Source of the DNA: Acaryochloris marina S15 | Lineage (GTDB): Bacteria; Cyanobacteriota; Cyanobacteriia; Thermosynechococcales; Thermosynechococcaceae | DNA length: 32,000 nucleotides | Direction: 5' to 3' | Assembly (NCBI RefSeq): GCF_018336915.1 | Contig: NZ_CP064925.1 | Location: forward strand, 240,001-272,000 | In this document: piece by piece, positions 1 through 25,012 of the stretch | Position numbering within the stretch: the first letter of the stretch is position 1 | Layout: every line of letters starts with the position of its first letter | Translations under genes and position numbers: made by a program | Notes under the pieces: model-generated | Database searches by the model: none | What the model saw: only the letters and a program-made list of their open reading frames with translations | What the model was told of the DNA's origin: nothing

Positions 1-3000
1 TTTATTAGTTCCTCCTTCTTGGAATCCACGTTCTCCATCACGATCAAGATCATGGAATTTAGTTCCTTGAATGACACCACTTGAGGTAAGGTCAACCACC
101 TCTAGAATGAATTGCTGGGTCTCAACCCCTCCTCGATTATCCTCAACCTGAATTTCAACTGTTTGTATGCCAATATCTTGAGTCGTGACATCCCAAGAGA
201 TCTGACCAGTGTCTGAGTTGATCACCAAACCCAAAGGTGCTGTCAATAGTGAGTAACTGATTACATCTCCATCAGGATCGAGTGCATCAATATCTGTCAA
301 GTATGATGTACCCGCAAAAGCTTTTAAGTCAGGAGAACTAATAATAATGGGTGCATTATTTCCTGCTTCAGCTTGAACAAAAATCCCATAGGCTTGTTCA
401 GCAGTTCCACCCTGACTATCATCAACAAGAACGACAACTTCATTAAAACCTAACTGGGTATTATCCGGTCTCCAACTGATAAGCCCTGTGTTTGAATCAA
501 TAGACATATTTTGGGGACCACTCACTATTGAAAATGTGAGTGAGTCTCCATCAGCATCTTCTGCAGATAACTGATATTGGTAATCTGCTGAGACATTTGC
601 ATCAACGATAGGGATTGACTTAAAGCTAGGAGGCCGATTTGGAGGTGCCTCAATTACTCCAAGGGTATAGTCTTGCGAGGTGATACCACCCCGACTATCA
701 CTGACTTGTACCGTGATGTCATGATTAGCAATATCAGCTACAGTGGTGTCCCAACTGATCACACCCGTCGTTGGTTCAATGGTCATGCCATCGGGGGCAA
801 TCAGGAGTTCATAGGTGAGGGTATCTCCGTTTGGATCAGCTGCATTAACGTCGTAGGTGTAGGGCAACCCAGCAATCGCTTCTAGTCTGGGGGTTGATTC
901 AATGACTGGATTGGAATTTAATTCCGACAGCACAACGAAATCATAAGAAAATTGCACACCCTCTGGGTTTCTAAAGCTAATGGTTCTTGGTCCAGTCAGG
1001 TCATCAGGATTAAACTTGCCTGCGGTGACTAAACTTGTGAAATCAAAGTAAGGGCGTCCATCTGCGGTCAGACCGTCCGCATCAACAACCCGCACAGTGG
1101 GGTTACTCAGATTTGTCACCGCTACCAGGAGGGGACCATCTAAACCAATGGTGCTAATGTTGCGTAGGGTCACCTCAGTAGTCAGGATCTGGCTTTTCTC
1201 ATTGAAGGAAGTTTGTTGATACTCAACTTCGGTACTGAAAGTAACATCCGACAGTAGTGAAAAGTCGATGGGGTCTACTCCCGTAACAAGGGGAGTATCT
1301 GGAATCGCGGTAACAGGATCACTACCAGTGCTATCCTGAACCTCAATATCATTAATCTGAACGCTGGTCGTGACATCACTGTCATCATTGACTAACCGAA
1401 AGACCAAGGTTGCTTCAGTCCCTGGTGCAAGACCTGCCAAATTCACGATAACGGTCTGTCCCTCCAGACGCACTCCTGGAGCTAACTCAGCGGGGAACCC
1501 CTCCGTCATATTTAAGAAGGCATCTTGGTTAGAACCAATGGTGTGAATCAAAGAGTTGCCATTCCCATCCACAAGAGCAACTTCAAACGCATCGTTGATA
1601 AAATCTGGATCGCTGGTATCAAAGATGAGATCACTGTAGGTAAAGCGCAGCTCAGCAGTATTACTGGGAATCGTAATGGCTTGTTCCGCTGTCGTTGTAA
1701 AGTTCGTTCCTTCCTGTAGAACAATCAGGGAGGAAATATTAAAGGAGATGGTTTGGGAATCAGTCCCACCTTGGCCATCACTGACGGTATAGCTAAAGGC
1801 ACCTGCGGCACCTGAGGTCCCTGGTTGAGGGAGAAACTCTAAACTCTCCAACTCATTGAGACTCAGAGTTTGCCCTAAGGTTAAAGTCGTTCCATCAGCC
1901 AACCTTACAATCCCTTGATCTGCCAAGGGTAGCTGGGCAACTGTGATTGTAAGAACATCCCCATCAACATCAGTAGGGGCAGTGATATCTAGAGGAGCCA
2001 ACGTTCCATCATTCGAGGCAGTGATGACTTTATCGTTATCTACAATCGGAAGATCATTGACCGGATCAACGGTAATGCCGAGGGTTTCTGTATTGATCTG
2101 TTGTCCCCCAGCCCCTGTTTGCCCCTGATCATCCACACTCACCGTGAAGACATCAGCACCATCGAAATTCAGATTGCCTCGATAGGTCAGATTAACCAAA
2201 GCTTGATTGATATTAGCTAAGGTGCCAGAGAACACCATGCTGCCATTGGCCGAGCCATCGCCTTGGCTAAAGGTCAACCCACTGGTTTGCCCCAGACTCA
2301 GAACACCATTGTCTACAGTGAGAGTGACAATTACCTCCCCACCATTGACATCAACATCACTAATCGTGATGCCGCTCATCACTAGATCGGTGTCTTCATC
2401 CACCGACGCAGCCGTCGGCAGGATAATCCCTGGCCCATCATTGACAGCAGAGATATCTAAGGTGATGGCCTGAGCTGATATTCCCCCTTGGCCATCACTA
2501 ACGCGATAGCTAAATTGTCCCGCCGTCCCTACAGCATCAAGGACCGGGACAAAGACGAGTCCTTCTAGTTCTATAATCGTCAGGGCCTGATCTAAAACAA
2601 CTGCTGTTCCATCGGCCAGTTGAATCTCACCTTGGACTGGATCTGGAACCTCACTCACCTGCAGGGTCAGTGCATCTCCATCCGCATCCACAGGGGCAGT
2701 AATACCTAATGGATTAGCAACACTGTCCTCCAAGACCATCAGGGTCTTGTCAGGATCAACCGTAGGGGCAACATTGGTTGAATTAACCGCGATTGCAATA
2801 GAGGCCGCATCCGTAAGCAATCCCCCCTCTCCAGTATTGCCCTGGTCATTAACCTCCAAAAAGATATTGGCCGTGCCGTCAAAATTGACCTCACTGCGAT
2901 AAACCAGATCGCTCACAGCTTGATTGATGTCAGCCAAAGCCCCCGTGAAGGCCATTTGGACATCACTGACCCCATCGCCCGTAATAAAAGTGAGGCCATT

Positions 3001-6000
3001 GGTCTGGCTTAAAGACAGAACACCACTATCCACCGTTATAGAGACCTCTAATAGTCCCGTTCCAGCATCTACATCCGTCAAACTAATCCCAGCAATCGTT
3101 AAGTCCGTCTCCTCAGCCACGGATAAAGAGGTCAGGGGAACGATTAACTCTGGAGCGTCATTGACCGGAGTAATCTCCAAGACCACGGCTTGGGAATCGG
3201 TTCCCCCTTGGCCATCGCTGACGGTATAGCTGAAAGTGCCAGCAGCGCCAGCCTCATCATTACCAGGCACAAATTCTAGATCTTCTAGATCAGAGGTACT
3301 GAGCTGTTGACCTACCACCAGGGCTGCCCCTGCTAATTGCACCACCCCTTGACTACTATCAGGAATCTCATCCACCGTCACCGTGAGGACATCCCCATCA
3401 CTATCCGTGGGGGCATTAATAGCTAATGGAGTAGCACCACTATCTTCAGCCACGGTCAGGGTCTTATCAGGATCTGCAACAGGAGCACTATTGGTTGCGG
3501 CTACAGCAATATTGATGGTTGTGCTGTCCGTCAGAGCACCCCCTTCACCCGTATTGCCTAGATCATTCACAGCAATGGAAAGGGTATCGAATCCGTTGTA
3601 GTTGGCATTACCTCGATAAATCAGGTTCGATAGAGCCTGATTAATATCTGAGAGGGTTCCTCTAAAAATCAGGGTGCTATCGGTAATTCCATCCCCTTGA
3701 GTGAAAGCCAATCCCGTTATTTGACTCAGACTCATCACCCCGTTGGTAGCACTCAGGGTAACTTCGAGTTCTCCACTGTCTACATCAACATCATTGATGC
3801 TGATGCCACTCACGACTAAATCAGTGTTTTCATCAACGGCTTGAGCCCCAGGTACCGTTAGGAGGGGAGCATCATTAACAGGCGTCACGGCAATATCAAC
3901 GGTTTGGGTATCCGTGAACCCATTTCCCCCATTGCCTGCTGACTGGTCATTCACTGCAATCGCAATCGCATCACTGCCGTTGAAATCAGCCTCAGCCCGA
4001 TAGGTCAGATTATCTAGGGCCGTATTGATATCTGAGAGGGTGCCCGTAAAGACGGCGGTGGGGTCTGCCGTTCCATCTCCCACACTAAAGGTCAAACCAT
4101 TGGTCTGGGCAAAATTCAAGACGCCATGATTCACCGTAAGGGAGACTTCTAGGGCATTGCTGCCTGCATCGGCATCACTAATGGAAATACCATTGACGAG
4201 TAAATCCGTATCTTCAGCCCCTGTTACTGTCGCTGGAGCTGTAATCTCAGGGGGACTCCCCACCCCAATTCGCTCAATGGTCTGACTAAATTGGCTTTGA
4301 TTTCCCGCCGCATCCGTTGCCACTGCACTCAGGGCATTTGTCCCTATATCTAGGGGCACATCCTCAAACGCAAACTGACCTTGGCCATCAGCCACAACCG
4401 TTTGTCCCAAAGGATTGAGAACCACACTGGCATTGGCTTCCGTGGTTCCCACCAAGCGGACCGTTTCCAAGGTGGTTTGCTGGTCACCTACCGGATCTGT
4501 ATCTGACTCGGGTGCGAGATCAAAACTAGGAGCAGGGATAGTGGTATCGAGGACAAACGGTAAAGAGTAGGGTTGAACAGTGCCACTACCCTCAATCTCA
4601 ATTTGAGCCACCACATCCGTGAAGTCCTGATCACCCCCATTCAATAGATCTTCGAACCGTAATAAATTCGGTTCATTTTCATCCACCTGCATATGGTCGA
4701 AGTGATCCGGGTTGGCGGCTGTAAAGGAGAAAAAGGCTTTGGGATGGCGACGGGTTCGGTTCTTGGGATTCCTCTTGAGAAACTGCTCCGTCGTATTGTC
4801 CTGAATAATATAGAAACCCACCAAACCATCGGCAGGTAGGTCTAATTCCGTCACCGCTCCTTCCCCTAAACCACTGGCAAAGATTACCTGTTGGCTTGCA
4901 CTCGATAGAGCAGCTTTGGCATAGCCCTTATCTCCGGGCTTCAAGTGGCCAATCCGACCCTCAGCATCATCGACGTGAAATAGGCCCAGCTCATTATCAA
5001 AGCTTGCCTCTCGTTCTACCCAGGTAAACTTAGCCGTGACGGTGCCACTGGTATCTCCAGGTAATTGGAACGCTTCTGCATCCAGTGAACTAAAGCCATT
5101 AAAGACTTCTCCTCCATTGCTATTACCAAAAGCATCCGTGGCGAGCAGGTTGAGGGTATAGGTCCCATCGGGGAGAACACCGCCATTGATTTGATTGAGG
5201 GTGGCCTGATCTAAGACAAATGTCCCGTCAGACTGCAACGTCCCCAGGACATCCACATATTGATCTATGGGGGTATTGTTCAACCCCGCTCTAAAGCTCG
5301 TGATCTGACTGGCATCTGAAATCTGACCCACCACCGTGGGGTCAAAGGTCAAGCCATCAGTATTTGTGCCGTTGGCTGCAGTGTCGTTCGCCAAGCTAGC
5401 ACTAATGACGGGTGGGTCTTGATCTGCAGGATTGATGTTAGCAAGTTGCTCAATCTCTAAATCAGACAAGGCCCGGTTATACACCCGTGCATCGGCAATA
5501 ATACCGTCAAGTCCCCGAGTTCCTCGACCATAGCCTTTGCCGTCGTGGAAGCGAGTACTTTGATTCACCCCACCAATACCAATATCATTGGAGTGACTCT
5601 TGAGCTGAGCACCAGCACCGGAGTCAAACTGCTCACCATCGAGATAGGCAGAGAGCGCCTGTTGTTGGACGTGATTTTGCCCAGCTTGGGCATCTAGGAT
5701 CAGGGAAACATGATGCCAGGTATCGGCCTCTACCTGATCTGTAGAAAGAAAAGTACCGTTCCAATTGCTTTGTTTACGGTTCCATCCCCCTACGTATAGA
5801 TGTCCATCATCCAGATAGATATTGAGACCCCGAGTGCTACCCCCTTCTTCATAGATGACTTGCTTGCCTGCTTGTAGGGTATCGGTCTTGAACCAAATAC
5901 TGACGGTGCGTTGGGCATGCGTTCCAAGATTAATATCACGGGTATCTTTGACGGCGAGGTAATCGTTGCGGCCATCGAATTCAACCCCACCCCCTAGGGA

Positions 6001-6462
6001 ACCACCCACATCAACGAATTGAGCCCCATGTCTTAAAAAGCCTCGATTGTTGCGACCTTCGGGCGAGGTATCGGCAGCAACCTGTCCAGTCGTTTCATCC
6101 AGAGTCAGATGCATCACCAAGTCATCGGTAGAGACGGTGGATGCATTGCCGACAAACTGACCGGGGCCAATGCCCAATTGCTGACTAGTGGCAGTGGATG
6201 AAGAAGGGATTGAGATTGATCCTGGGTTAGGTAAAGTTTGGTTCCAGGAGGCATTAGCAGGTGCTGGCGCTGGAGAGCCATTGACGCTACTCCCTCCAAC
6301 CGCGTTGACAGGATCATTGAAGGCTGGGTTATGCTTGCTACCCATTTGGTTCAATACAGAACCCAAGCTAGTATCGTTCCCTAGCGCATCCAGTAAATCC
6401 CCTTCCAGTAAGCCTGATGTTGGAATATCCTGATTGCCAAAAAGATTACCCGAACCACTCAT
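1..6462 (-). CDS. Giant secreted or cell-surface repeat protein. The first 2154 codons are in the window and the 3' end lies beyond it. Domains: LamG lectin-like, Ig-like, DUF4114-like, cadherin-like VNDAP modules, He_PIG Ig domains.
   Basis: My own minus-strand translation starts at the ATG at 6462-6460 (MSGSGNLFGNQDIPTSGLLEGD...). It stays open for 2154 codons to position 1 (...VIQGTKFHDLDRDGERGFQEGGTNK). It is absent from the track because no stop lies in the window. Recognisable parts: LamG/concanavalin-like (nt 5437-6120, ...GIIADARVYNRALSDLEIEQL); Ig-like; DUF4114-like (nt 4591-5037, ...LRFEDLLNGGDQDFTDVV); seven VNDAP-delimited modules; three He_PIG-type domains; the start of an SdrD-B/Cna-B-like segment at the edge. 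No N-terminal signal peptide is visible. Confidence 0.85.
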   Translation of the reverse strand, partial: MSGSGNLFGNQDIPTSGLLEGDLLDALGNDTSLGSVLNQMGSKHNPAFNDPVNAVGGSSVNGSPAPAPANASWNQTLPNPGSISIPSSSTATSQQLGIGPGQFVGNASTVSTDDLVMHLTLDETTGQVAADTSPEGRNNRGFLRHGAQFVDVGGSLGGGVEFDGRNDYLAVKDTRDINLGTHAQRTVSIWFKTDTLQAGKQVIYEEGGSTRGLNIYLDDGHLYVGGWNRKQSNWNGTFLSTDQVEADTWHHVSLILDAQAGQNHVQQQALSAYLDGEQFDSGAGAQLKSHSNDIGIGGVNQSTRFHDGKGYGRGTRGLDGIIADARVYNRALSDLEIEQLANINPADQDPPVISASLANDTAANGTNTDGLTFDPTVVGQISDASQITSFRAGLNNTPIDQYVDVLGTLQSDGTFVLDQATLNQINGGVLPDGTYTLNLLATDAFGNSNGGEVFNGFSSLDAEAFQLPGDTSGTVTAKFTWVEREASFDNELGLFHVDDAEGRIGHLKPGDKGYAKAALSSASQQVIFASGLGEGAVTELDLPADGLVGFYIIQDNTTEQFLKRNPKNRTRRHPKAFFSFTAANPDHFDHMQVDENEPNLLRFEDLLNGGDQDFTDVVAQIEIEGSGTVQPYSLPFVLDTTIPAPSFDLAPESDTDPVGDQQTTLETVRLVGTTEANASVVLNPLGQTVVADGQGQFAFEDVPLDIGTNALSAVATDAAGNQSQFSQTIERIGVGSPPEITAPATVTGAEDTDLLVNGISISDADAGSNALEVSLTVNHGVLNFAQTNGLTFSVGDGTADPTAVFTGTLSDINTALDNLTYRAEADFNGSDAIAIAVNDQSAGNGGNGFTDTQTVDIAVTPVNDAPLLTVPGAQAVDENTDLVVSGISINDVDVDSGELEVTLSATNGVMSLSQITGLAFTQGDGITDSTLIFRGTLSDINQALSNLIYRGNANYNGFDTLSIAVNDLGNTGEGGALTDSTTINIAVAATNSAPVADPDKTLTVAEDSGATPLAINAPTDSDGDVLTVTVDEIPDSSQGVVQLAGAALVVGQQLSTSDLEDLEFVPGNDEAGAAGTFSYTVSDGQGGTDSQAVVLEITPVNDAPELIVPLTSLSVAEETDLTIAGISLTDVDAGTGLLEVSITVDSGVLSLSQTNGLTFITGDGVSDVQMAFTGALADINQAVSDLVYRSEVNFDGTANIFLEVNDQGNTGEGGLLTDAASIAIAVNSTNVAPTVDPDKTLMVLEDSVANPLGITAPVDADGDALTLQVSEVPDPVQGEIQLADGTAVVLDQALTIIELEGLVFVPVLDAVGTAGQFSYRVSDGQGGISAQAITLDISAVNDGPGIILPTAASVDEDTDLVMSGITISDVDVNGGEVIVTLTVDNGVLSLGQTSGLTFSQGDGSANGSMVFSGTLANINQALVNLTYRGNLNFDGADVFTVSVDDQGQTGAGGQQINTETLGITVDPVNDLPIVDNDKVITASNDGTLAPLDITAPTDVDGDVLTITVAQLPLADQGIVRLADGTTLTLGQTLSLNELESLEFLPQPGTSGAAGAFSYTVSDGQGGTDSQTISFNISSLIVLQEGTNFTTTAEQAITIPSNTAELRFTYSDLIFDTSDPDFINDAFEVALVDGNGNSLIHTIGSNQDAFLNMTEGFPAELAPGVRLEGQTVIVNLAGLAPGTEATLVFRLVNDDSDVTTSVQINDIEVQDSTGSDPVTAIPDTPLVTGVDPIDFSLLSDVTFSTEVEYQQTSFNEKSQILTTEVTLRNISTIGLDGPLLVAVTNLSNPTVRVVDADGLTADGRPYFDFTSLVTAGKFNPDDLTGPRTISFRNPEGVQFSYDFVVLSELNSNPVIESTPRLEAIAGLPYTYDVNAADPNGDTLTYELLIAPDGMTIEPTTGVISWDTTVADIANHDITVQVSDSRGGITSQDYTLGVIEAPPNRPPSFKSIPIVDANVSADYQYQLSAEDADGDSLTFSIVSGPQNMSIDSNTGLISWRPDNTQLGFNEVVVLVDDSQGGTAEQAYGIFVQAEAGNNAPIIISSPDLKAFAGTSYLTDIDALDPDGDVISYSLLTAPLGLVINSDTGQISWDVTTQDIGIQTVEIQVEDNRGGVETQQFILEVVDLTSSGVIQGTKFHDLDRDGERGFQEGGTNK
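95..925 (-). repeat. Three tandem He_PIG / dystroglycan-type cadherin-like Ig domains inside the giant ORF
   Basis: There are three ~90-aa units with the same pattern. Example: NPVIESTPRLEAIAGLPYTYDVNAADPNGDTLTYELLIAPDGMTIEPTTGVISWDTT...VQVSDSRGGITSQDYTLGV. The second and third units carry ...DADGDSLTFSIVSGPQNMSIDSNTGLISW... and ...DPDGDVISYSLLTAPLGLVINSDTGQISW... Confidence 0.65.
1740..4260 (-). repeat. Intragenic tandem array of two alternating cadherin-like modules (order A-A-B-A-B-A-B; the A+B period is about 720 nt)
   Basis: Type A is ~125 aa: VNDAP..L..V.EDTDL...GISI.D.D...LEV.L....GVLSL.QT.GLTF..GDG....F.G.L..IN.AL..L.YR. Type B is ~110 aa: N.AP..DPDK.L.V.ED...PL.I..P.D.DGD.L...V.E.PD...G...LA.G....L....LE.L.F.P....G.AG.FSY.VSDGQGG. 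The VND(A/G/L)P codon strings lie on the + strand at about 2047, 2431, 3152 and 3866. The antisense shadow ORFs 2207-2473 and 2924-3229 are visibly similar to each other at a 717-nt offset. Confidence 0.75.
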
Positions 6463-6564
6463 AACCCAACCCAATCCCTACTCAAAACACAGATAAATAG
6501 ATACACAAAGTGGACAGCAAGCGCATTAGCCAAGCGCTGCCATCCATGATTAGTTCCTTGCTAT

Positions 6565-7281: not shown

Positions 7282-8033
7282 TCCAGAAACTGAGTTGAAT
7301 TATTAAGAAAAAAGCATGAGAAATCTGTGGAATAGATTCTTCCCACAACAATATTTGTGCAAAATCAAGAGTTTTACACGATAAGTCTGTATAACCTCAA
7401 ATAATATTGAAATTAATTAGTGAAGATATTGAGTCTACTTGACATCTATCTAAATCAATTTATTTGAATTTCATCTTCCTCAATTACTATTTTCTAGGGA
7501 GACACTATAGTCTTTAGAGAGTGTTCTGATAGAAACTACCCATATTGAAGGAGTAAATTTCATATTGATTCTCTGTTTAGATCTTATTTAATGAAGCGGG
7601 GAACTACAGTAGGTTCATAACTGTCGATAACTGATTATATACGACGAAATTATATTATTTAAATAACACGTATTCCCTTAATTATTAACGCGAGCATAAA
7701 TATTTAAGAGAAGGTCATAAATTAATACTATTTTCAACTAAAACATTCAAGATAGTCATATAAAGTAATTACACTTTCTACGAAAGAGGTGATATTTATG
7801 TCATTTAGGAGATTATAAGATAATTATTTTTAATCAAATAAATATCTAGACATCCAATTTACTAATGACAAGCAGTCCCCTTGATTTGTTGAGAAAAGAT
7901 ATATACTCGTTAAGTTTTGTTATGTAAGTCACCAGTTTTTGTAGACATTAGTATTTGAAATTGATAGTCATTATTGACTAACTATTACCTGGTGAAAGTG
8001 CATCTTCAATGAGGTAACAGTTATAATTGCCGC

Positions 8034-8876
8034 ATGTTTGATTCTACTTGTAAGTTCCTTGCAGAGAGCTTTTCCAGTGATTTTGCTTCCTGGTTGATTG
8101 GTGAACCTATTCCACTCACTGAACTCAGCCCATCAGAACTATCCCTCGAACCAATCCGGGCCGATGCGTTAATTCTTCTAGCTTCTGAGGAATACATTTT
8201 ACATGTAGAGTTCCAGACTGAACCGGATCCGAATATGCCATATAGGATGGCTGATTATCGCTTGCGGGTCTACCGTCGCTTCCCCCAGAAGCAGATGAAG
8301 CAAGTGGTGATCTATTTGACACCCTCAAACTCAGATTATGTTTACCAGACAGCCTTTGAGATTCCGGGGACACGTCATGAATTCGAAGTGATTCGTCTTT
8401 GGGAACAGCCCACTCAACTTTTCTTGGCATCGACGGGGCTGCTTCCTTTAGCTGTTTTAACCAACACCTCGAATCAAGCCCAGACCTTGCGGCAAGTAGC
8501 TGAACGAATTGATGCCGTTACAGAATCGAGAGTTCAAAGCAACATAGCTGCCTCCACTGGGATTCTAGCTGGGTTAACATTGGAGAGGGACGTCATTAAT
8601 CAAGTTCTGCGGAAAGAGATTATGCAACAGTCAGTCATCTATCAAGAGTGGAAAGAAGAATTTCTTCAAGAAGGTCGCCAAGAAGGACGGCAGGAAGAAG
8701 GACAATCGCTGATCCTCCGTCAACTCACCCGACGTCTTGGTGACGTCTCCCCAGAATTGCAATCCCAGATCCAGTCCCTTTCCCTCGACCAACTAGAAGC
8801 ATTGGGTGAAGCATTACTCGACTTTACGGAACCCGCTGATTTGGTGAACTGGTTGAAGCAACATCCATCTGAGTAG
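8034..8876 (+). CDS. Rpn-family recombination-promoting nuclease / putative transposase (PD-(D/E)XK core plus C-terminal DUF4351)
   Basis: The N-terminus (MFDSTCKFLAE..FASWL..ELSLEPIRADALILL...ILHVEFQTEPD..MPYRMADYRLRVYRRF) is the typical high-copy cyanobacterial Rpn/YhgA-like pattern, with D...ExQ. The C-terminus (LILRQLTRRLGDVSPELQSQIQSLSLDQLEALGEALLDF) is DUF4351-like. Confidence 0.85.
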   Translation: MFDSTCKFLAESFSSDFASWLIGEPIPLTELSPSELSLEPIRADALILLASEEYILHVEFQTEPDPNMPYRMADYRLRVYRRFPQKQMKQVVIYLTPSNSDYVYQTAFEIPGTRHEFEVIRLWEQPTQLFLASTGLLPLAVLTNTSNQAQTLRQVAERIDAVTESRVQSNIAASTGILAGLTLERDVINQVLRKEIMQQSVIYQEWKEEFLQEGRQEGRQEEGQSLILRQLTRRLGDVSPELQSQIQSLSLDQLEALGEALLDFTEPADLVNWLKQHPSE

Positions 8877-8896
8877 CAACAACCGCCTTCTATTCA

Positions 8897-10285
8897 CTAA
8901 GTAACTTTATCCAACCACACCACTTTCACCTCGCAATCATCCAGCTCAGCCAGTAGCTCCATATCCCAGCGCATCTGATCGGTGATAGCAGACAACGCAT
9001 TACCTTCCTCAACCGTCAGCTCATACTCATTCCCCCTGGGCTTAGGTTTGACCATCTGAAACTGACTCAAGACCTTTTCCTCGATCGCTTTTCTGACCGC
9101 ACCCTTCTTCCCTCCTGAAATCTCAACTGTCAACCTCACCTGAACCGCATTCAAGGGCAGATCTACCGCAGTAATCTTGGGCCAGTTCGCAGGCTCATTA
9201 ACGACAACTTCTAGTTCAATCGCCTCTTCTGCCACTGGCACCTCACTAAAAGCCACCAGCTCCTCCAGCGGCATGGGCTGTCGTTCCACTTCCCCTTTAC
9301 TTTCTAGGAACACCCCCTTAGCCGTCCGATACCGGACCTTCTGGGAATAGACCTCGAATGCCTTTACAGATCGCTGCCGCATCAACGTCATTGCCAGGTA
9401 AGCATCCATGCCATTCTCAATCAACTGACTGGCATAGGTATGCCGTCCTTTATGGGGATGAATATCCGGCCAGCCAGCATCCTGGGCCAAAGCTTTGACC
9501 AGCTTATAGATACCCTCATACCCCAACCGTTGACCCTTATTTCGATGACTCGTAGAGACAAACATCGGATCATCCGCTGTCATCCCTCCCTCACCGTCCA
9601 CCATCCGCACCCGAAGATTAGCCCGCAGTGCTTCATCGGTTTGCTCATCGACAGGCACCCGACCCACAGATCCATGCTTAGCCTGACGGATAGTGATTTC
9701 CACCCCGTTATAATCCCCAGCATTGAGATTAGAGATTTCCTCTGCTCGCATCCCGGCAAACACCATCAAACAGAGGATCGCCCGATCACGTCTCTGTGTC
9801 TTCCGCTTCTCCAGTGCCTCAAACAGTGCTTCAACCTGAAACAGCTCTAAATTCTTCCCCTCAGTCTCGGGCGTTACCGGAATACTAATGGCTGTACCGG
9901 GATTCTCCTCGATATACCCGGCCTTTCTCAGCCAGGAAAAGAAGCTCTTGAGGGCAGTTAATATTGCCCCCACCGACCCCTGTTTTAACTGCCGACCCGA
10001 CTCTAGATAAGTCTTGTATCGCTTCAGATCGTTCATGGTAATCTGATGCCAGTCCTTGTTCACCCACAGACTGAACTGCCGTAGATGACGTTCATAGTTG
10101 CGTCGGGTGTTAGCCGCCAGATTTTTCAGGGTGAGGAACTGTTCGATCCTGACTTGACGCAGATTCACTACCGCTGGCTTAGGCAAGGGCGTTTTAGATA
10201 CAGGTTTGCTCTCCTCTGGTTTTTCCGCGTCAAACTCAATGAGACGCACAGGTGGGATGTCGGAAATTTGAGAGAAACGCGACAT
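8897..10285 (-). CDS. Tyrosine recombinase / phage-type integrase with a ~130-aa C-terminal extension
   Basis: SAM-like N-domain: TRRNYERHLRQFSLWV...ILTALKSFFSWLRKAGYIEENP. Catalytic signature: AGMRAEEISNL (R), IRQAKHG (K), HPHKGRHTYAS (HxxR), AFEVYS (Y). About 130 further residues follow the catalytic Tyr. Confidence 0.85.
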   Translation of the reverse strand: MSRFSQISDIPPVRLIEFDAEKPEESKPVSKTPLPKPAVVNLRQVRIEQFLTLKNLAANTRRNYERHLRQFSLWVNKDWHQITMNDLKRYKTYLESGRQLKQGSVGAILTALKSFFSWLRKAGYIEENPGTAISIPVTPETEGKNLELFQVEALFEALEKRKTQRRDRAILCLMVFAGMRAEEISNLNAGDYNGVEITIRQAKHGSVGRVPVDEQTDEALRANLRVRMVDGEGGMTADDPMFVSTSHRNKGQRLGYEGIYKLVKALAQDAGWPDIHPHKGRHTYASQLIENGMDAYLAMTLMRQRSVKAFEVYSQKVRYRTAKGVFLESKGEVERQPMPLEELVAFSEVPVAEEAIELEVVVNEPANWPKITAVDLPLNAVQVRLTVEISGGKKGAVRKAIEEKVLSQFQMVKPKPRGNEYELTVEEGNALSAITDQMRWDMELLAELDDCEVKVVWLDKVT

Positions 10286-10343
10286 AAATTACACCACAGA
10301 GAACAAACTTCAAGATCACTATATTAGACCTGTGGTTTTAATT

Positions 10344-10364
10344 CCAGATTTTGTACCAAAATCT
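10344..10364. promoter_or_regulatory. 21-bp palindrome CAGATTTTG-TAC-CAAAATCTG, ~60 bp upstream of the integrase start
   Basis: Read directly: 9-bp perfect arms with a 3-nt spacer. It lies in the divergent integrase / Rpn-2 intergenic region. Confidence 0.35.
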
Positions 10365-10564
10365 GTATTACACAAAAACTTACACGAAAAAATGACTCTC
10401 CCAGACTCGTCTCTAGAATTCTTTCCCCGATTGACTTTGGAGATTCCGGTGTTCGCTGGTGGTCCTGGTCGGGCTGGTCTTTTGTCAGATCTGTAGGCCG
10501 CTTGACTCAAATTTATTGAGAAGAAACTCGGTGATACACTCAAGCAGCTAATCGAATGTGATAG

Positions 10565-11497
10565 ATGGAGAAGCGGGTGACACAGCAAGGGTCCATTGAC
10601 CACGATGGTTTGTTTAAAGAACTGATTGAAACGTTCTTTTGGGAATTCCTAGAATTGTTTTTGCCTCAAGTCTTGGACTATGTTGAACGTGGACCTGTGA
10701 TATTTTTGTCCCAGGAGGTCTACAGCAGTATTGGCGCTGAAGAGAAGCGCATTATTGATCTTCTGGCTCAAGTTCAATTCCGAGGTCAGGAGAGCTATTT
10801 CCTCTTTCACATCGAACCGCAATCGTCTGATCAGCCTGACTTTGAGAAACGAATGTTCTACTACTTTGGACGATTGCATGAGAAGCATGATCTGCCCATT
10901 TATCCAGTAGTCATATTCTCTTATGACAGCCCTCGTAAAGCAGCGGAAAGTAGCTACAAAGTTGATTTTCCCGACTTCCAGGTCTTGCAGTTCAATTTCC
11001 AAGCTATTCAACTCAATCGATTGAATTGGCGGGACTACTTGAGACAGAATAATCCAGTGGCTTCTGCTTTGATGGCCAAGATGCAGATTGCTAGAGAAGA
11101 TCGGCCCCAAGTCAAGGTGGATTGCTTGCGAATGCTAGCCACCTTGCAGCTTGATCCGGCGAGAACAGAGTTCATTTCTCAGTTTGTAGATACTTATCTC
11201 AGGCTGGAGGCAAATGAGGAGCAACGCTTTCAAGCGGAAGTTGATAGATTAGAGTCAGGAGAACGGGAAGCGATCATGCAAACTTTAACCAGTTGGGAAG
11301 AGAAAGGTTGGCAAAAAGGAGAGGCCACAATTGTTCTGCGTCAACTTCATCGGAAATTCAAAAAGCTGTCTCCTGAAGTTGAAGCCCAAATCCAATCCTT
11401 AGAGATTGAGCAGCTAGAGACGCTGAGCGAAGCACTTTTAGAGTTTGAAGGAATAGACAATTTAACCTCTTGGTTACAAAATTTGGAAACTTCCTGA
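10565..11497 (+). CDS. Second, divergent Rpn-family PD-(D/E)XK nuclease / putative transposase with C-terminal DUF4351
   Basis: HDGLFKELIETFFWEFLELFLP...IIDLLAQVQFRGQESYFLFHIEPQS...FEKRMFYYFGRLHEKHDLPIYPVVIFSYD gives the D...ExQ core. The C-terminus (IVLRQLHRKFKKLSPEVEAQIQSLEIEQLETLSEALLEF) is DUF4351-like. Confidence 0.8.
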   Translation: MEKRVTQQGSIDHDGLFKELIETFFWEFLELFLPQVLDYVERGPVIFLSQEVYSSIGAEEKRIIDLLAQVQFRGQESYFLFHIEPQSSDQPDFEKRMFYYFGRLHEKHDLPIYPVVIFSYDSPRKAAESSYKVDFPDFQVLQFNFQAIQLNRLNWRDYLRQNNPVASALMAKMQIAREDRPQVKVDCLRMLATLQLDPARTEFISQFVDTYLRLEANEEQRFQAEVDRLESGEREAIMQTLTSWEEKGWQKGEATIVLRQLHRKFKKLSPEVEAQIQSLEIEQLETLSEALLEFEGIDNLTSWLQNLETS

Positions 11498-11505
11498 ACT
11501 AACTT

Positions 11506-11612
11506 GGAAGCGTAACAGATTCCTAGCCTAAGATCATTCAGTCAAAAAATTACAGGAATTTGCCAGAAAATAGATAATTACTCAGCATAGACTAGGAATC
11601 TGTTACGCTTCC
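11506..11612. repeat. Perfect 21-bp inverted repeat (GGAAGCGTAACAGATTCCTAG / CTAGGAATCTGTTACGCTTCC) with a 65-nt spacer
   Basis: Arms at 11506-11526 and 11592-11612, read directly. It starts 9 nt after the Rpn-2 stop codon. Confidence 0.7.
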
Positions 11613-11629
11613 TGATTCAATTATCATTA

Positions 11630-11992
11630 TTGAGGAACTATATTTTGATGTCGCTACTCCAGACACCAAGTATTCTGTATAGAATGAAGGAGCAACAAAA
11701 TATCACAGGTAGGATAATTGCTCTATTGAGTAACATTGCTGGATTAGTCAATTACTTGGGCCTAGCCTGGTGGGCTGAGATCAACACATCATGCCCTACT
11801 TGCACATACTATTTTGGCCCATTTATAAGTCGTCAGGAAGTGGAAGTAGCCTTGCCTGGTTATATTGAAGATTTAGAATCTGAACAAGCTGAAAATATTG
11901 TCACTAATATTCAGCGTTGCAAGCCGGCCCAATTGACCAACTGCTATTTTGACGATTCCCAAAACTTACAAACGTTTGAACTTCAGAGTTAG
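11630..11992 (+). CDS. DUF1816-family small protein
   Basis: LAWWAEINTSCPTCTYYFGPFISRQEVEVALPGYIEDLESEQAENI matches the remembered DUF1816 core (WWVEI.T..P.CTYYFGPF). The track start is TTG. The ATGs at 11648 or 11684 are more likely true starts. Confidence 0.7.
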   Translation: MRNYILMSLLQTPSILYRMKEQQNITGRIIALLSNIAGLVNYLGLAWWAEINTSCPTCTYYFGPFISRQEVEVALPGYIEDLESEQAENIVTNIQRCKPAQLTNCYFDDSQNLQTFELQS

Positions 11993-12354
11993 TATCAAAT
12001 CTCTAGGCAATCTGTGGTTAGGTTGAAGGATTTTTAGAAATGCTGAGGGAAAGTTTAGGGCAGAGTCTAAGCATCATACAGTGATTGCAAGTCAGTACTA
12101 TTACCACTCATAGTCGGTATAAGCAAATAACATCTTTCAGATTAAAACTGCCCATCATCGAATTATCTTGCTGCATAAGGAACCTTGCCTTATTGAGAGG
12201 AGCAGGATGATGATGACCTAAGACCGTTCAGAGAACATCGCCCCCTAGTATCACTGTAGTTGATTCGTCTGAATCGAACCTAAGAGATGGGGGGATTTAC
12301 CATAGGGGCGGTCGGTAGTGCGCTAGCGAGGCATGGATCAATTTCCAAGAGGCA

Positions 12355-12443
12355 AGGGTAACACTTTTCCAATGAGATAAATCCTTAAAACCAATGTCTT
12401 GAATGGATTTCAGAGTATTTTGTAAAACTAAAAGTGTTACCCT
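12355..12443. repeat. 14-bp inverted repeat (AGGGTAACACTTTT / AAAAGTGTTACCCT) with a 61-nt spacer, just downstream of the minus-strand gene ending at 12484
   Basis: Arms at 12355-12368 and 12430-12443, read directly. An inner AAATCC/GGATTT pair lies inside the spacer. Confidence 0.5.
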
Positions 12444-12483
12444 CCTTTGGAGCATTCCTCATCCGCAGACATTGGGGTTTGTC

Positions 12484-12759
12484 TTACAAACTCTCTTTGT
12501 ATTGATTGGGCCGACACTCAATCACCATATCCATAACGTCTGGCATCACAATGATGAGCCGCTCAACCCCAATATCTAATCGGGCAATGGCATCAGCTTC
12601 GTGAAATAAAATTTCTGGTTCACTTAGATGCTGACAGTGGATATAGACCGTCTTTTTGTCTGGCTCATAACGCAACTGGCTACCCTTACACCACGGAAAC
12701 CGACGGCACAAGTAGTCTGATAATGCATGGATACAATTCATCAAGTATTCCTCAGTCAA
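12484..12759 (-). CDS. Hypothetical small Cys-rich protein (85-91 aa), abutting the DUF1830 gene
   Basis: Track ORF. The TTG start at 12759 lies 1 nt after the upstream gene's stop, and an ATG lies at 12741 (MNCIHALSDYLCRRFPWCKG...). No family recognised. Confidence 0.5.
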   Translation of the reverse strand: MTEEYLMNCIHALSDYLCRRFPWCKGSQLRYEPDKKTVYIHCQHLSEPEILFHEADAIARLDIGVERLIIVMPDVMDMVIECRPNQYKESL

Positions 12760-12760
12760 T

Positions 12761-13024
12761 TTAGGTTGCTTTGACAGTCAATTGCTTACAGGGAATACAG
12801 TCCACTTGAATAGCCGTGGCAATTTCACTGCTATGAACTTCAAGATGTGCTTTTCGAGGTGCGTTGAATATTAGATACTGCTGCGGGAAAATAACCCGCT
12901 CAAAGTACCAGTTCTCAACATTGGTGACCCGTAACACCTGAACCCGAGAGGTGGAGTTACGGTAACTGCAAAATACGAATTCTGACTGCTGAGGCTCAAG
13001 AGTTTTAATCATAGGTAATGGCAA
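12761..13024 (-). CDS. DUF1830-family small protein
   Basis: FCSYRNSTSRVQVLRVTNVENWYFERVIFPQQYLIFNAPRKAHLEVHS matches the remembered DUF1830 pattern (Y.N.T....I.RI.N...WYFERVV.P.....F.A...A.LEIH). The likely ATG start is at 13012. Confidence 0.7.
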   Translation of the reverse strand: MPLPMIKTLEPQQSEFVFCSYRNSTSRVQVLRVTNVENWYFERVIFPQQYLIFNAPRKAHLEVHSSEIATAIQVDCIPCKQLTVKAT

Positions 13025-13519
13025 ACCAGCCCTCAGATCCGAGTTCCAAGGGCTGGCTTGACGAATAATTTAAGTAGGAATTTATAAGCTGACCAGTGTT
13101 TTTTATTAGAAAGATATAATCCTCTCCAAGAACATTTCCCTTAGCAGGGATTTGTCGCTTTTATTATGACAATTACATTAACTTATTTATAGTTTCTTAA
13201 TAAAACCTTTTATAATGTCTTTATAATCTTCTTGATTTATATCCACTCTAGACTTCTGTGCCGAAAGCCAGTTCATGCTGATGGTGAATTGCTTTGAGGG
13301 ATTTAGTGCTTAGGTTTTGCATTCACCCATCTCGCTATCTATGGGATATTCATACAACCTGTTAGATGATAAGCGATAGCTCTATTTTTTACGTTTCTTA
13401 ATTTAATTCTCAGCTAGAGAAATGATTTAAGGGGTTGAATGTCCGTAACGAATCGCTAATCCAAGCCCTTATCTTGATTTCTGTGAAATTCTGCTGCAGA
13501 TAAATCTGCTTTTTAGCTA

Positions 13520-18764: not shown

Positions 18765-18906
18765 CGATCACTCTGGGAGCATGTCACCTTTGCAGATGCA
18801 CAAAATTTGGAATCAAAAATTTAATGTCTGAAAGCAAAGCTAGCAAAGATTTCTGGGATAAGTATAAATACTAGATTTCAAAGGTGACATGCTCCCGATC
18901 ACTCAG
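18765..18906. mobile_element. MITE-like 120-bp element with 17-18 bp perfect terminal inverted repeats and 11-bp flanking direct repeats
   Basis: TIRs are GGAGCATGTCACCTTTG (18776-18792) and CAAAGGTGACATGCTCC (18879-18895). The immediately flanking repeats are CGATCACTCTG (18765-18775) and CGATCACTCAG (18896-18906), 10/11 identical. Confidence 0.55.
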
Positions 18907-20133: not shown

Positions 20134-20660
20134 TGAATTCTTTAATAAATGAGCATTATGTAAAGAGTCAGTAGATTACATTTAGTCTATTTACTAAACT
20201 AAATGAATAACTTAGCAAGTATTGCAATAAGCCTATCATTAATGCTTTAAGTATTTTTGCTTATTTTATTTGTATTGGTGATGGCAATGGTTATACCTAC
20301 TTATCGCAAAGTAGCCCTCTTCCCCCTACGCCTTCAGGCCGGGGAGTAATCAACTAGTCTGACTCACGGTTTACTAGACCTCTTGCATAATTCAGCTACC
20401 GATATGGTAGATGACTAAAAATTCATGTCAGATTGCGGCATAAATTGAGTGATTAACACATCATGAAACAAATATTGCAAGAGGTCTAATTTGCGTTCGT
20501 GTAATTTTATTCGTTTGGCTTGAGCACTAAGGTATATTCTCAATTAGGTGTTGGCATCTGAGGATTGTGAAACCGCAAGATTTCAATAATGAAGCGCTCA
20601 CCCATACAACATCTGGCGAGTGGTAACCGTAGACTTCAACCTTTACAGCTGTAATAAATA

Positions 20661-23345: not shown

Positions 23346-23369
23346 CAATCTCCACAAATGTGGAGATTG
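23346..23369. terminator. Strong hairpin (10-bp stem CAATCTCCAC / GTGGAGATTG, 4-nt loop) between the convergent GT9 and mrpB genes
   Basis: Read directly. There is no clear U-tract on either strand, so the terminator role is tentative. Confidence 0.3.
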
Positions 23370-24734: not shown

Positions 24735-25012
24735 GTCCCCGTTTCCTTAGTATCACTAGAACAATAGGCCAACACATATCCCAGCACGGTATTCCAGATC
24801 GCTAGGGAGAGAATGGCCAGAACCAGCAGGGGCCATTCCCGTGGAATTTTCAGAAGCAAACCAACAACAATTAACATCGACCCCAAAGTATCGGCCACAG
24901 AGAGGCTATGAAGTTTGTAGAGCACCGAGCGGTGACCAACTAAGGGCCAAGTCCCCCAAAACCAAAAGAAAATCCCAATGCCCATCAAGACATAACTAAT
25001 CGCGTTAATCAT
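24731..25012 (-). CDS. mrpG: Mrp subunit G
   Basis: 93 aa with 3 TM segments. LHSLSVADTLGS resembles the MnhG motif (HA..KA.TLG). Operon position supports the call. Confidence 0.65.
   Translation of the reverse strand: MINAISYVLMGIGIFFWFWGTWPLVGHRSVLYKLHSLSVADTLGSMLIVVGLLLKIPREWPLLVLAILSLAIWNTVLGYVLAYCSSDTKETGT

What the first reader, a model, noticed from the sequence alone, without database searches (positions are those of the whole stretch)
8034..11612. Candidate novel cassette: two divergent Rpn-family nucleases flanking an extended tyrosine recombinase, with palindromic sites
Three recombination or nuclease genes are packed into 3.5 kb: Rpn-1 (+), integrase (-) starting 20 bp after the Rpn-1 stop, then Rpn-2 (+) divergent from the integrase. 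The two Rpn proteins belong to clearly different subfamilies but share the DUF4351 tail. The integrase / Rpn-2 intergenic region holds a 21-bp palindrome (10344-10364). The cassette ends with a perfect 21-bp inverted repeat (11506-11612). I do not know of a described system pairing Rpn PD-(D/E)XK nucleases with a tyrosine recombinase. It could be a mobile island core, a recombination-driven switch, or a defence module.
Basis: partly seen in the sequence, partly recalled or inferred. Interest (0 to 1): 0.7.

Follow-up and report, generated by a model that had tools for sequence, protein, structure and literature searches.

The report
Plasmid recombinase beside its crossover site
The three genes are real but do not form a joint system: the middle gene is a plasmid-borne Xer-like recombinase, the small palindrome beside it marks exactly where Acaryochloris plasmids have swapped segments, and the two flanking Rpn nuclease genes look like self-contained hitchhikers.

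Summary
The window is part of a 298-kb Acaryochloris marina replicon, syntenic with plasmid pMB01 of strain 'Moss Beach'. The Rpn-Int-Rpn trio occurs only in these two homologous plasmids. About 35 cyanobacterial relatives of the integrase have no Rpn neighbour. The closest relatives of Rpn-1 and Rpn-2 have no such integrase. So a three-gene system is not supported.

The functional unit is the integrase plus the palindrome. Window and pMB01 are 85-90% identical across the integrase and 100% identical for 2.7 kb to its right. The last mismatches (10353-10355) lie in the palindrome's centre. Fifteen copies of the site region lie on ten Acaryochloris plasmids. They join one left half to at least four different right flanks, always at that centre. 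Integrases only 50-56% identical keep a co-varying dyad upstream.

I read this as a plasmid resolution and cointegration system of the Cre/loxP or Xer/dif type that shuffles plasmid segments. The Rpn genes fit the published single-gene RpnL/RpnS toxin-antitoxin model. The terminal inverted repeat is one copy of a dispersed 110-bp hairpin element.

It is a new member of a known kind, of moderate interest.

The parts
8034..8876 (+). Rpn-1: Rpn-family PD-(D/E)XK-type nuclease gene with a DUF4351 tail. Read as autonomous cargo, not as part of the recombinase unit.
   Evidence: TIGR01784 93.2 bits (cutoff 52.1) and DUF4351 2e-27. Putative motif residues D44, E59, Q61 were read from the sequence. 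The closest relative (89.5% aa) on pREC2 has no integrase nearby.
8622..8876 (+). Candidate internal small ORF (RpnS-like antitoxin, 84 aa) inside Rpn-1. Inferred, not shown.
   Evidence: In-frame Met197 is preceded by GGAAAGAG, and a 4-aa tandem QEGRQEGR lies at aa 212. Published model: RpnS = DUF4351, with variable 4-aa repeats (PMC10400941).
8897..10285 (-). Xer-like tyrosine recombinase, 462 aa, with a conserved N-terminal peptide and a C-terminal extension.
   Evidence: PF00589 76.7 bits plus SAM-like domains. The best NCBIfam matches are XerA/XerC/XerD, all far below their cutoffs. PDB XerC-like 4a8e 4e-17 and XerD 1a0p 2e-14. R180, H278, R281 and Y313 align with XerD R148, H244, R247 and Y279. 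Q303 aligns with XerD H270.
8903..9148 (-). C-terminal beta-alpha-beta-alpha-beta domain of the integrase (aa 380-461), function unknown.
   Evidence: AlphaFold pLDDT 85, pTM 0.74. No Pfam match. Foldseek gives only generic ferredoxin-like hits with E > 1e-3. The domain is conserved in a subset of homologs, and some of these add a PF07929 domain after it.
10286..10339 (.). Integrase-proximal (left) part of the site region, likely including the integrase promoter/leader.
   Evidence: It is conserved together with the left arm in all 10 aligned copies, including copies that keep only a 12-36-codon integrase remnant.
10340..10370 (.). Core recombination site AATTCCAGATTTT-GTACC-AAAATCTGTATTA (13-bp imperfect dyad arms, about 5-7-bp centre). 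Inferred crossover point at 10353-10357.
   Evidence: The last window/pMB01 mismatches are 10353-10355, followed by 100% identity to 13097. Homology with other plasmids breaks at this centre. A co-varying dyad lies upstream of integrases that are 50-56% identical.
10366..10465 (.). Right-hand accessory region ('R1'), with two direct repeats TTACAC-N-AAAA (10368-10373 and 10380-10385).
   Evidence: It is conserved at about 78-94% in full-site copies on pMB01, pMB02, pMB03, pMB04, pMB06, pREC3, pREB7 and pREB8. It has a discrete right end near 10453-10469. Other lineages carry the analogous pair CTCTAGCGAA x2.
10565..11497 (+). Rpn-2: protein with a YhgA/PDDEXK_2-like N-domain and a DUF4351 tail. 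It is the cargo lying to the right of the site.
   Evidence: DUF4351 8e-21, with weak PDDEXK_2 and Transposase_31 matches. More than 2,166 homologs were found, many with PF04754. It is 100% identical in pMB01 and truncated in pMB02.
11276..11497 (+). Candidate internal RpnS-like ORF (73 aa) inside Rpn-2. Inferred.
   Evidence: In-frame Met238 is preceded by AGGAGAA and GGGAAG.
11506..11612 (.). One copy of a dispersed hairpin element of about 110 bp. It is not a cassette boundary.
   Evidence: Seven copies lie on six Acaryochloris plasmids in unrelated intergenic contexts. It has 25 predicted pairs, 4 of them with compensatory changes, and a conserved loop. In pMB02 it abuts the equivalent of window position 11087.

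Best explanation
The stretch is a junction on an Acaryochloris marina megaplasmid, not a three-gene machine. The functional unit is a plasmid-encoded Xer-like tyrosine recombinase (8897-10285) and its own target site immediately upstream. The site has a ~31-bp dyad core (10340-10370) plus about 100 bp of accessory sequence with two direct repeats. Two recombinase subunits would bind the two arms and exchange strands across the 5-7-bp centre. Between directly repeated sites on a plasmid dimer this resolves multimers. Between sites on different co-resident plasmids it makes and resolves cointegrates and so swaps whole flanks. The sequence comparisons record exactly this swapping. Shown here: the breakpoints fall in the core centre, the site is multi-plasmid, the dyad co-varies with the integrase, and the trio is not conserved. 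Inferred: binding, strand exchange and the resolution role. Rpn-1 and Rpn-2 are read as autonomous single-gene toxin/antitoxin or defence genes (RpnL with an internal RpnS = DUF4351 tail). They ride along at this junction, as HigBA, HicAB, Uma2 and TIR/NB-ARC genes do at other copies of the site. The 107-bp inverted repeat is a separate dispersed hairpin element.
For: (1) Window against pMB01 is 85-90% identical over the integrase. The last mismatches are at 10353-10355 in the palindrome centre. Identity is then 100% to 13097 and about 98-100% to the window end. There is no nucleotide match left of about 8700. (2) Ten aligned copies share the left half. The 3-5-nt centre varies. The right side is R1, a second dyad-preserving arm R2 (AAAAATCGGAATT), or unrelated DNA. 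R1 is also found joined to a different left arm (TACTCCAAATAA), the sequence that lies upstream of the 37-46% integrase family. (3) The site region occurs at 15 places on 10 plasmids, all of them Acaryochloris. (4) Integrases only 50-56% identical (L005, L010, L013) have ttaattcCAGATATG...(C)ATATCTGta 120-355 bp upstream. These are symmetric compensatory changes in both arms, followed by a lineage-specific pair of direct repeats. (5) The catalytic R, H-x-x-R and Y residues are present. (6) The integrase lies next to parA/parB on pREC3 and within about 2 kb of them on pMB03. (7) No Rpn gene flanks any other integrase relative in 1.17 Mb of loci. Rpn-1's closest relative stands alone. (8) Rpn proteins are published as self-contained toxin-antitoxin/defence genes that move by recombination or hitchhiking, with RpnS = DUF4351 (PMC10400941). 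Rpn-1 carries a QEGRQEGR repeat and an internal Met with an SD-like sequence upstream.
Against: There is no experimental evidence of recombination. Some plasmids carry 2-3 site copies, and pMB03 has two inverted left halves about 100 bp apart. That is more than a simple one-site resolution system needs. The usual fifth active-site residue (His/Trp) is Gln303 in this subfamily. The catalytic Lys assignment (K203) rests on family invariance, not on the XerD alignment. An Rpn-1-type tail abuts the integrase or its remnant on 4-5 of about 9 plasmid occurrences. That is not random, although DNA-level homology, including the shared junction CATAGGCGGCAAGTCGG, points to common descent. No par or rep genes lie within this 32-kb window.
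Confidence: 0.65

Rival explanations
1. Rpn-Int-Rpn is a functional three-gene cassette. The Rpn nucleases would cooperate with the recombinase in mobility, switching or defence.
For: The trio is kept in pMB01 even though Rpn-1 has diverged to 35% aa identity. An Rpn or its DUF4351 tail directly abuts the integrase or its remnant on pMB02, pMB07 and pREB1, and weakly on pREC3. Rpn-1-type tails are rare on these plasmids, at about 9 places.
Against: About 35 integrase relatives, including paralogs that are 80-92% identical, lack a full Rpn gene. Rpn-1's and Rpn-2's closest relatives lack this integrase. In pMB02, pMB07 and pREB1 the integrase is deleted while the Rpn or its tail stays, and in pMB01 the integrase is split. 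The adjacent copies are homologous DNA, so they count as one origin. Rpn proteins are published as self-sufficient (PMC10400941).
Confidence: 0.08
2. The integrase and site form a cargo-capture platform, in the manner of an integron or pdif module. It would collect toxin-antitoxin and defence modules next to the site on cyanobacterial megaplasmids.
For: R1 is followed by at least five different blocks: Rpn-2; HigA/RelE; TPR-TIR-NB-ARC (on four plasmids); Uma2 plus HicAB; and HicA. R1 has a discrete right end. Rpn genes are reported to be enriched in defence islands.
Against: There is only one site in 32 kb, so no module is bounded by two sites. The segment exchanged with pMB01 is at least 21 kb and carries housekeeping-type genes such as Mrp, SbtA and LysR. 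The integron-integrase model scores 26 bits against a cutoff of 265. The 107-bp repeat is not attC-like in behaviour: its other copies are far from any integrase, and its CAGATT motif is not conserved. PADLOC finds nothing. These plasmids are rich in TA genes in general.
Confidence: 0.15
3. The palindrome is only an operator or promoter element for the integrase. The breakpoints would then come from homologous recombination that ends where the conserved integrase sequence ends.
For: The palindrome lies 60 bp upstream of the integrase start codon, a typical place for autoregulation. On its own it is not above chance.
Against: Conserved sequence continues for about 100 bp beyond the palindrome (R1) in most copies. 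Even so, left and right halves are re-assorted exactly at the centre, giving L-R1, L-R2, L-X and L'-R1. Homologous recombination would not stop within 5 bp at least five separate times. The arms have the 13+5+13 layout of tyrosine-recombinase cores.
Confidence: 0.07
4. The unit is the attP-like site and integrase of an integrative element. It would move plasmid segments into and out of chromosomes or other replicons.
For: A related integrase (38% identity) with the L' motif upstream lies on the MBIC11017 chromosome (L016). Hybrid sites with an unrelated right flank look like attL/attR.
Against: All 15 site matches in the plasmid collection are on plasmids. No tRNA gene or direct-repeat border lies in the window. 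The site is a symmetric dyad, not an asymmetric att site with arm sites flanking both sides. No phage association was found.
Confidence: 0.1

Closest known systems
Plasmid-encoded tyrosine recombinase plus adjacent site used for multimer resolution: Cre/loxP of P1, ResD/rfsF of F, Rsd/crs (from my own knowledge of these systems)
   Same: A single plasmid-borne recombinase gene has its dyad target immediately beside it, with 13-bp arms and a short central spacer. It lies next to parA/parB on some plasmids.
   Different: This integrase family is uncharacterised. It has a conserved N-terminal peptide, a C-terminal alpha/beta domain, Gln in place of the His/Trp, and an accessory region of about 100 bp with direct repeats. 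Several plasmids hold extra site copies without an integrase.
XerC/XerD with dif, cer, psi, and the pdif modules of Acinetobacter plasmids (PMC5790767; title and abstract seen)
   Same: The closest sequence relatives are XerA/XerC/XerD. A core plus one-sided accessory sequences resembles cer/psi. Site-mediated cointegrate formation and resolution, and re-assortment of flanks between plasmids, resemble pdif.
   Different: All Xer equivalog models score far below cutoff: 114 against 335 for XerC and 114 against 330 for XerD. The recombinase is plasmid-encoded and apparently single, acting on a symmetric dyad, not a chromosomal XerC+XerD pair. No module bounded by two sites is present in the window.
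RpnL/RpnS intragenic toxin-antitoxin and antiphage genes (Zhong et al. 2023, PMC10400941)
   Same: Both have an Rpn N-domain and a DUF4351 tail. Rpn-1 has a 4-aa tandem repeat in the tail. Both genes have an in-frame internal Met with an SD-like sequence. They are plasmid-borne and lie next to recombination features.
   Different: Neither toxicity nor internal translation was tested. Rpn-2 scores below the TIGR01784 cutoff. PADLOC 2023 has no model that matches either.
Integrons (intI, attI, attC cassettes)
   Same: The layout looks alike on the surface: an integrase is divergent from a gene that is followed by an imperfect inverted repeat of about 110 bp containing ...AAC / GTT....
   Different: The integron-integrase model scores 26 bits against a cutoff of 265. 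Copies of the hairpin element lie far from any integrase. Similar hairpins are scattered across the window. The motif it shares with the core site is not conserved among copies.

Membership tests
Tyrosine recombinase (Phage_integrase, PF00589) | Pfam domain score above the gathering threshold | tested here: met
   76.7 bits against a cutoff of 27.1. The SAM-like N-domains PF02899 and PF13495 are also above cutoff.
Tyrosine recombinase (Phage_integrase, PF00589) | Catalytic R-K-H-R-[H/W]-Y residues | tested here: inconclusive
   R180, H278, R281 and Y313 align with XerD R148, H244, R247 and Y279. The position of XerD H270 is Gln303, which is conserved as Q in this subfamily and is H in more distant members. 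The Lys is assigned to the invariant K203, but the pairwise alignment places XerD K172 opposite V207.
XerC / XerD / XerA equivalogs (NCBIfam) | Score at or above the curated equivalog cutoff | tested here: not met
   XerA 130.8 against 220, XerC 114.3 against 335, XerD 113.8 against 330.
Integron integrase (TIGR02249) | Score at or above the curated cutoff | tested here: not met
   26 bits against 265.
Recombinase with a cognate adjacent core site (Cre/loxP-type unit) | A dyad site with two arms and a short spacer next to the gene, conserved and co-varying with the recombinase | tested here: met
   The 13+5+13 dyad lies 60 bp upstream in all Acaryochloris copies. Compensatory arm changes are seen in L005, L010 and L013.
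Recombinase with a cognate adjacent core site (Cre/loxP-type unit) | Evidence that crossover happens within the spacer | tested here: met
   This is comparative evidence only. The window/pMB01 divergence ends at 10353-10355. The combinations L-R1, L-R2, L-X and L'-R1 are all joined at the centre.
Plasmid multimer resolution system | Resolves dimers and improves plasmid stability | not testable with these tools
   There is only contextual support: plasmid-only distribution and a parAB neighbourhood on pREC3 and pMB03.
pdif-type module | Module bounded by two sites | tested here: not met
   There is a single full site in the 32-kb window and no second half-site above chance.
Rpn family (TIGR01784) | Score at or above the curated cutoff of 52.1 | tested here: met
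   Rpn-1 scores 93.2 bits. Rpn-2 scores only 35.6 bits, so it is not met for Rpn-2. Many Rpn-2 homologs nevertheless carry PF04754.
RpnL/RpnS gene-within-gene toxin-antitoxin | C-terminal DUF4351 (RpnS) domain | tested here: met
   PF14261 scores 95.4 bits (Rpn-1) and 74.3 bits (Rpn-2) against a cutoff of 25. The link between RpnS and DUF4351 is stated in PMC10400941.
RpnL/RpnS gene-within-gene toxin-antitoxin | Internal translation start that yields the small protein; toxicity of the long form | not testable with these tools
   Only sequence hints are available: Met197 and Met238 with purine-rich upstream sequence, and a QEGRQEGR repeat.
MITE (for the 107-bp element) | Terminal inverted repeats, multiple copies, target-site duplication | tested here: inconclusive
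   The inverted repeats and 7 copies are present. No target-site duplication is evident in the flanks. Compensatory changes in the arms favour a selected hairpin.

The most novel reading that the evidence does not exclude
The integrase and site module is a dedicated exchange hot spot on cyanobacterial megaplasmids. One plasmid-encoded Xer-like recombinase, acting on sites spread over most co-resident plasmids, would drive the inter-plasmid movement and duplication of large segments. It would also assemble toxin-antitoxin and defence cargo (Rpn, HigBA, HicAB, Uma2, TIR/NB-ARC) beside the site. This would be a pdif- or integron-like system with its own recombinase, and a candidate mechanism for the unexplained spread of paralogs across Acaryochloris replicons.
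Probability: 0.18. Interest if true: 0.65.

Novelty: new member of a known kind. Interest (0 to 1): 0.35.

Why it matters
Acaryochloris marina is known for an expanded genome in which most paralogs lie on different plasmids. A 2024 paper states that the molecular mechanism behind this gene duplication is unknown (PMC11086944). Here a recombinase and site unit is present on most of the plasmids examined, and natural breakpoints map to a 5-bp centre. That gives a concrete, testable candidate mechanism for inter-plasmid exchange. It also offers a potential site-specific recombination tool that is native to cyanobacteria. The result also corrects a tempting over-reading: Rpn genes next to an integrase are hitchhiking cargo here, not partners.

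Tried and rejected
1. Integron-like reading (int, attI-like site, Rpn-2 cassette, attC-like 107-bp repeat). Rejected for four reasons. The IntI model scores 26 against 265. The other six copies of the element are far from any integrase or Rpn gene. The CAGATT motif it shares with the core is not conserved among copies. At least five similar hairpin elements of 90-130 bp lie elsewhere in the window.
2. A second site in the window that would define an invertible or excisable segment. None was found.
3. Direct repeats at island borders. Only short two-copy matches at chance level were found.
4. tRNA and Rfam features. None were found.
5. Phage origin. The core pattern hits two viral contigs, but these are AT-rich chance matches with no integrase or other similarity.
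6. Defence annotation. PADLOC gives no hits for any of 9 local proteins.
7. A function for the integrase C-terminal domain. There is no Pfam hit, and Foldseek returns only generic ferredoxin-like folds with E > 1e-3. The function stays unassigned.
8. An exact-sequence look-up of the integrase gene context failed. The source was identified through the cluster look-up instead.
9. Rpn-2 context. Its paralogs on pREB1, pREB4 and pREC3 lie 1.5-2.6 kb from a tyrosine recombinase. That recombinase is an unrelated family (24-26% identity), and the three loci are copies of one block.

Full report
**What is there**

The window has three ORFs at the stated coordinates.
- Rpn-1 (8034-8876, +) is a clear Rpn-family protein. 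It scores 93.2 bits against TIGR01784 (cutoff 52.1) and has a DUF4351 tail.
- The 462-aa ORF at 8897-10285 (-) is a tyrosine recombinase. It has PF00589 plus SAM-like N-domains. Its best matches are XerA/XerC/XerD-type models, all far below their equivalog cutoffs. The integron-integrase model scores 26 bits against a cutoff of 265.
- Rpn-2 (10565-11497, +) has a strong DUF4351 tail. Its N-terminal nuclease region gives only sub-threshold PDDEXK_2, Transposase_31 and TIGR01784 matches.
- The two Rpn proteins are 27% identical.
- The palindrome is CAGATTTTG-TAC-CAAAATCTG at 10345-10365.
- The terminal inverted repeat has 25-nt arms at 11506-11530 and 11588-11612.

The palindrome by itself is not above chance: 2 such loci were seen in the window against 0.8 expected.

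**Where the window comes from**

Rpn-1 and the integrase are QUY45866 and QUY45867 of Acaryochloris marina, on a 298,052-bp replicon. The integrase-to-window-end part of the window is syntenic with plasmid pMB01 of Acaryochloris sp. 'Moss Beach'. The surrounding genes are:
- a giant Ig/cadherin-repeat protein (1-6477, -);
- small DUF1816 and DUF1830 proteins, PsiE and LysR;
- an Mrp-type antiporter, SbtA and a P-II-like protein.

There are no tRNA genes and no Rfam matches.

**Is Rpn-Int-Rpn a conserved unit? No.**

I collected 83 loci (1.17 Mb) around integrase relatives. About 35 of these are cyanobacterial relatives with 29-92% identity and up to 10 kb of flank. A tblastn search with Rpn-1 and Rpn-2 found Rpn genes only in the syntenic pMB01, plus a 23-aa fragment elsewhere. 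The contexts of the close integrase paralogs differ:
- on pMB03 it lies between an RND pump and an ankyrin gene, about 2 kb from parA/parB;
- on pMB04 it lies next to a pentapeptide-repeat gene;
- on pREC3 it lies directly beside parA/parB.

The view from the Rpn side agrees. The closest Rpn-1 relative (89.5% aa, pREC2) stands between a LysR gene and a hypothetical/SDR gene. Rpn-2 belongs to a very large cyanobacterial family with more than 2,166 hits. Its paralogs on pREB1, pREB4 and pREC3 sit in a different conserved block. That block is near an unrelated tyrosine recombinase of 24-26% identity. Metagenomic relatives have no integrase at all. In pMB01 the integrase itself is annotated as two overlapping CDSs, which points to a frameshift.

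One qualification applies. Rpn-1-type DUF4351 tails are rare on Acaryochloris plasmids, at about 9 places. Several of them directly abut this integrase or its remnant:
- pMB01;
- pMB02, where only a tail fragment remains;
- pMB07 and pREB1, where a full Rpn gene, its stop codon and a 12-codon integrase remnant (MSRLAQHADLPP) precede the site;
- pREC3, with a weak remnant.

pMB02 and pREB1 share the junction CATAGGCGGCAAGTCGG. These are therefore copies of one ancestral DNA segment, not independent associations. In three of them the integrase has been lost.

**What the palindrome is**

A sliding comparison of the window with pMB01 gives a sharp pattern:
- about 45% identity, i.e. unalignable, left of 8700;
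- 67-72% in the Rpn-1 tail and the integrase 3' end;
- 85-90% across the rest of the integrase;
- a switch to 100% from 10356 to 13097, and 98-100% to the end of the window, apart from an IS21 insertion in pMB01.

The last three mismatches are 10353-10355, which is the centre of the palindrome. Nothing left of 8100 matches any plasmid in the collection. Even so, pMB01 keeps the same gene order there at 35-37% aa identity.

I aligned ten copies of the integrase-upstream region from seven plasmids and one MAG, and examined five more. They show the following.
- A common left half: ...AAGATCACTATATTAGATCTGTGATTCTTATTCCAGATTT.
- A variable centre of 3-5 nt.
- A right side that takes one of three forms. 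The first is 'R1' (CAAAATCTGTATTACAC-AAAAC-TTACAC-AAAAAATGAC..., conserved to about 10465). The second is a different arm that preserves the dyad, 'R2' (AAAAATCGGAATT, in pREB1 and IP29b). The third is unrelated DNA (pMB03 twice, and pREC3).
- R1 is also found joined to a different left arm (TACTCCAAATAA) on pREB7, pREB8 and pREC4. That motif lies just upstream of the related integrase family of 37-46% identity.

Left and right halves are therefore re-assorted at least five times, always within the same few bases. This is the signature of site-specific crossover. The site region occurs at 15 places on 10 plasmids, all of them Acaryochloris.

Independent support comes from distant relatives. 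Integrases 50-56% identical (L005, L010, L013) carry ttaattcCAGATATG-N-(C)ATATCTGta 120-355 bp upstream. The outer arm positions are conserved. The inner positions changed symmetrically in both arms, from TTTT/AAAA to ATAT/ATAT. These sites are followed by a lineage-specific pair of direct repeats, CTCTAGCGAA x2 at 11-bp spacing, where Acaryochloris has TTACAC-N-AAAA x2 at 12-bp spacing.

The extended core, AATTCCAGATTTT-GTACC-AAAATCTGTATTA (10340-10370), has the 13+5+13 layout typical of tyrosine-recombinase sites.

**The integrase**

R180, H278, R281 and Y313 align with XerD R148, H244, R247 and Y279. XerD H270 aligns with Gln303, which is Q throughout this subfamily and H in more distant members. 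K203 is invariant in the family. Residues 1-39 and 346-378 are predicted to be disordered. Residues 380-461 form a confident beta-alpha-beta-alpha-beta domain (pLDDT 85). This domain has no Pfam match. Its structural neighbours are only generic ferredoxin-like folds, such as M20 peptidase dimerisation domains, the eIF2-alpha C-terminal domain and Cas2, all with E > 1e-3. Some homologs add a PF07929 domain after it. Its role is unknown. A role in oligomerisation is a guess.

**Most likely mechanism**

I read the unit as a plasmid-borne resolution and cointegration system. The recombinase would bind the dyad and exchange strands across the centre. This would resolve plasmid multimers. Between the homologous sites on co-resident plasmids it would form and resolve cointegrates and so swap flanks. 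The support is:
- the site is found only on plasmids;
- parAB genes are neighbours on two plasmids;
- the integrase family is present in many copies across co-resident plasmids;
- the breakpoints lie in the core centre.

Binding, catalysis and the resolution role are inferred.

**The Rpn genes**

Published work shows that Rpn proteins are self-contained toxin-antitoxin and antiphage genes. A small C-terminal protein (RpnS, annotated as DUF4351) is translated from within the gene. It carries variable four-residue repeats. The genes are not autonomously mobile and move by recombination or hitchhiking (PMC10400941). Rpn-1 has QEGRQEGR at residue 212 and an in-frame Met197 preceded by GGAAAGAG. 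Rpn-2 has Met238 preceded by AGGAGAA and GGGAAG.

The genes found to the right of other site copies are likewise TA or defence-type cargo:
- HigA/RelE;
- HicA;
- Uma2 with HicAB;
- TPR-TIR-NB-ARC.

This fits Rpn-2 as interchangeable cargo. It leaves open a more interesting reading, in which the site is a hot spot for collecting cargo. I give that reading about 0.15-0.2.

**The terminal inverted repeat**

The 107-bp element is a discrete unit. There are seven copies on six Acaryochloris plasmids, and homology is limited to the element itself. The copies lie in unrelated intergenic contexts. In pMB02 it abuts the equivalent of window position 11087, with unrelated DNA beyond it. Its 25 predicted pairs include 4 with compensatory changes, and the loop is conserved. 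Comparable hairpin elements lie at 12355-12443, 13101-13205, 18775-18896, 20375-20488 and 29049-29162. It does not delimit a cassette.

**Verdict**

The interpretation as an Rpn-integrase system is not supported. The unit is a new, uncharacterised member of a known kind: a plasmid-borne tyrosine recombinase with an adjacent core site. The natural evidence of crossover is unusually clean. It may bear on how Acaryochloris plasmids exchange and duplicate genes, a mechanism described as unknown in PMC11086944.

Noticed in passing
window 1-6477 (-), running off the window start: A giant ORF of more than 2,159 aa with Big_9, He_PIG, cadherin-like, Laminin_G_3 and DUF4114 repeats. pMB01 has a counterpart at the same position, annotated as 'putative Ig domain-containing protein', but with no nucleotide-level similarity.
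   Followed up: partly
window 11506-11612; also 12355-12443, 13101-13205, 18775-18896, 20375-20488, 29049-29162: Intergenic hairpin elements of 90-130 bp are scattered through the window. The 11506 family has 7 plasmid copies, compensatory arm changes and a conserved 57-nt loop. The 20375 element is 89% identical to a stretch of the MBIC11017 chromosome. It is undecided whether these are RNA elements, DNA structures or MITEs.
   Followed up: partly
window 7300-8030: A 730-bp intergenic stretch upstream of Rpn-1 is very AT-rich (about 33% GC against 45-50% in the flanks). It has no ORF and no match in the plasmid collection.
   Followed up: no
L001 (pMB03) about 9685-10186: Two copies of the integrase 5' end plus the left half-site face each other in inverted orientation, about 100 bp apart, just upstream of an intact integrase. 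This may be a footprint of an inversion or an aberrant recombination event.
   Followed up: partly
L084 (pMB02), L088 (pMB07), L089 (pREB1): The same integrase deletion occurs in all three: an Rpn stop codon is joined to integrase codons 1-12, and the site remains intact. These orphan sites could still be used in trans by integrases on other plasmids.
   Followed up: partly
window 15634 against L002 16944-19798: pMB01 carries an IS21-family insertion (istA/istB) that is absent from the window.
   Followed up: no
window 23524-30864 (-): A plasmid-borne Mrp-type cation/proton antiporter cluster lies with a Na+/H+ exchanger, a P-II-like gene and an SbtA-type bicarbonate transporter. A 520-bp stretch of the sbtA region is 87% identical to a Pseudanabaena PCC 7367 plasmid. 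ORFs 25257-26084 and 25640-27070 overlap on the same strand, which may indicate a frameshift or a mis-called start.
   Followed up: no
homologs P0004, P0029, P0032, P0051: Some members of this integrase family carry a further C-terminal PF07929 (PRiA4_ORF3-like) domain after the alpha/beta domain. NCBI names these 'IS1096 element passenger TnpR family protein'.
   Followed up: no
window 23346-23369: This is the strongest short palindrome in the window, with 10-11-bp arms and a 2-4-nt spacer. It lies between convergent genes and is probably a terminator.
   Followed up: no
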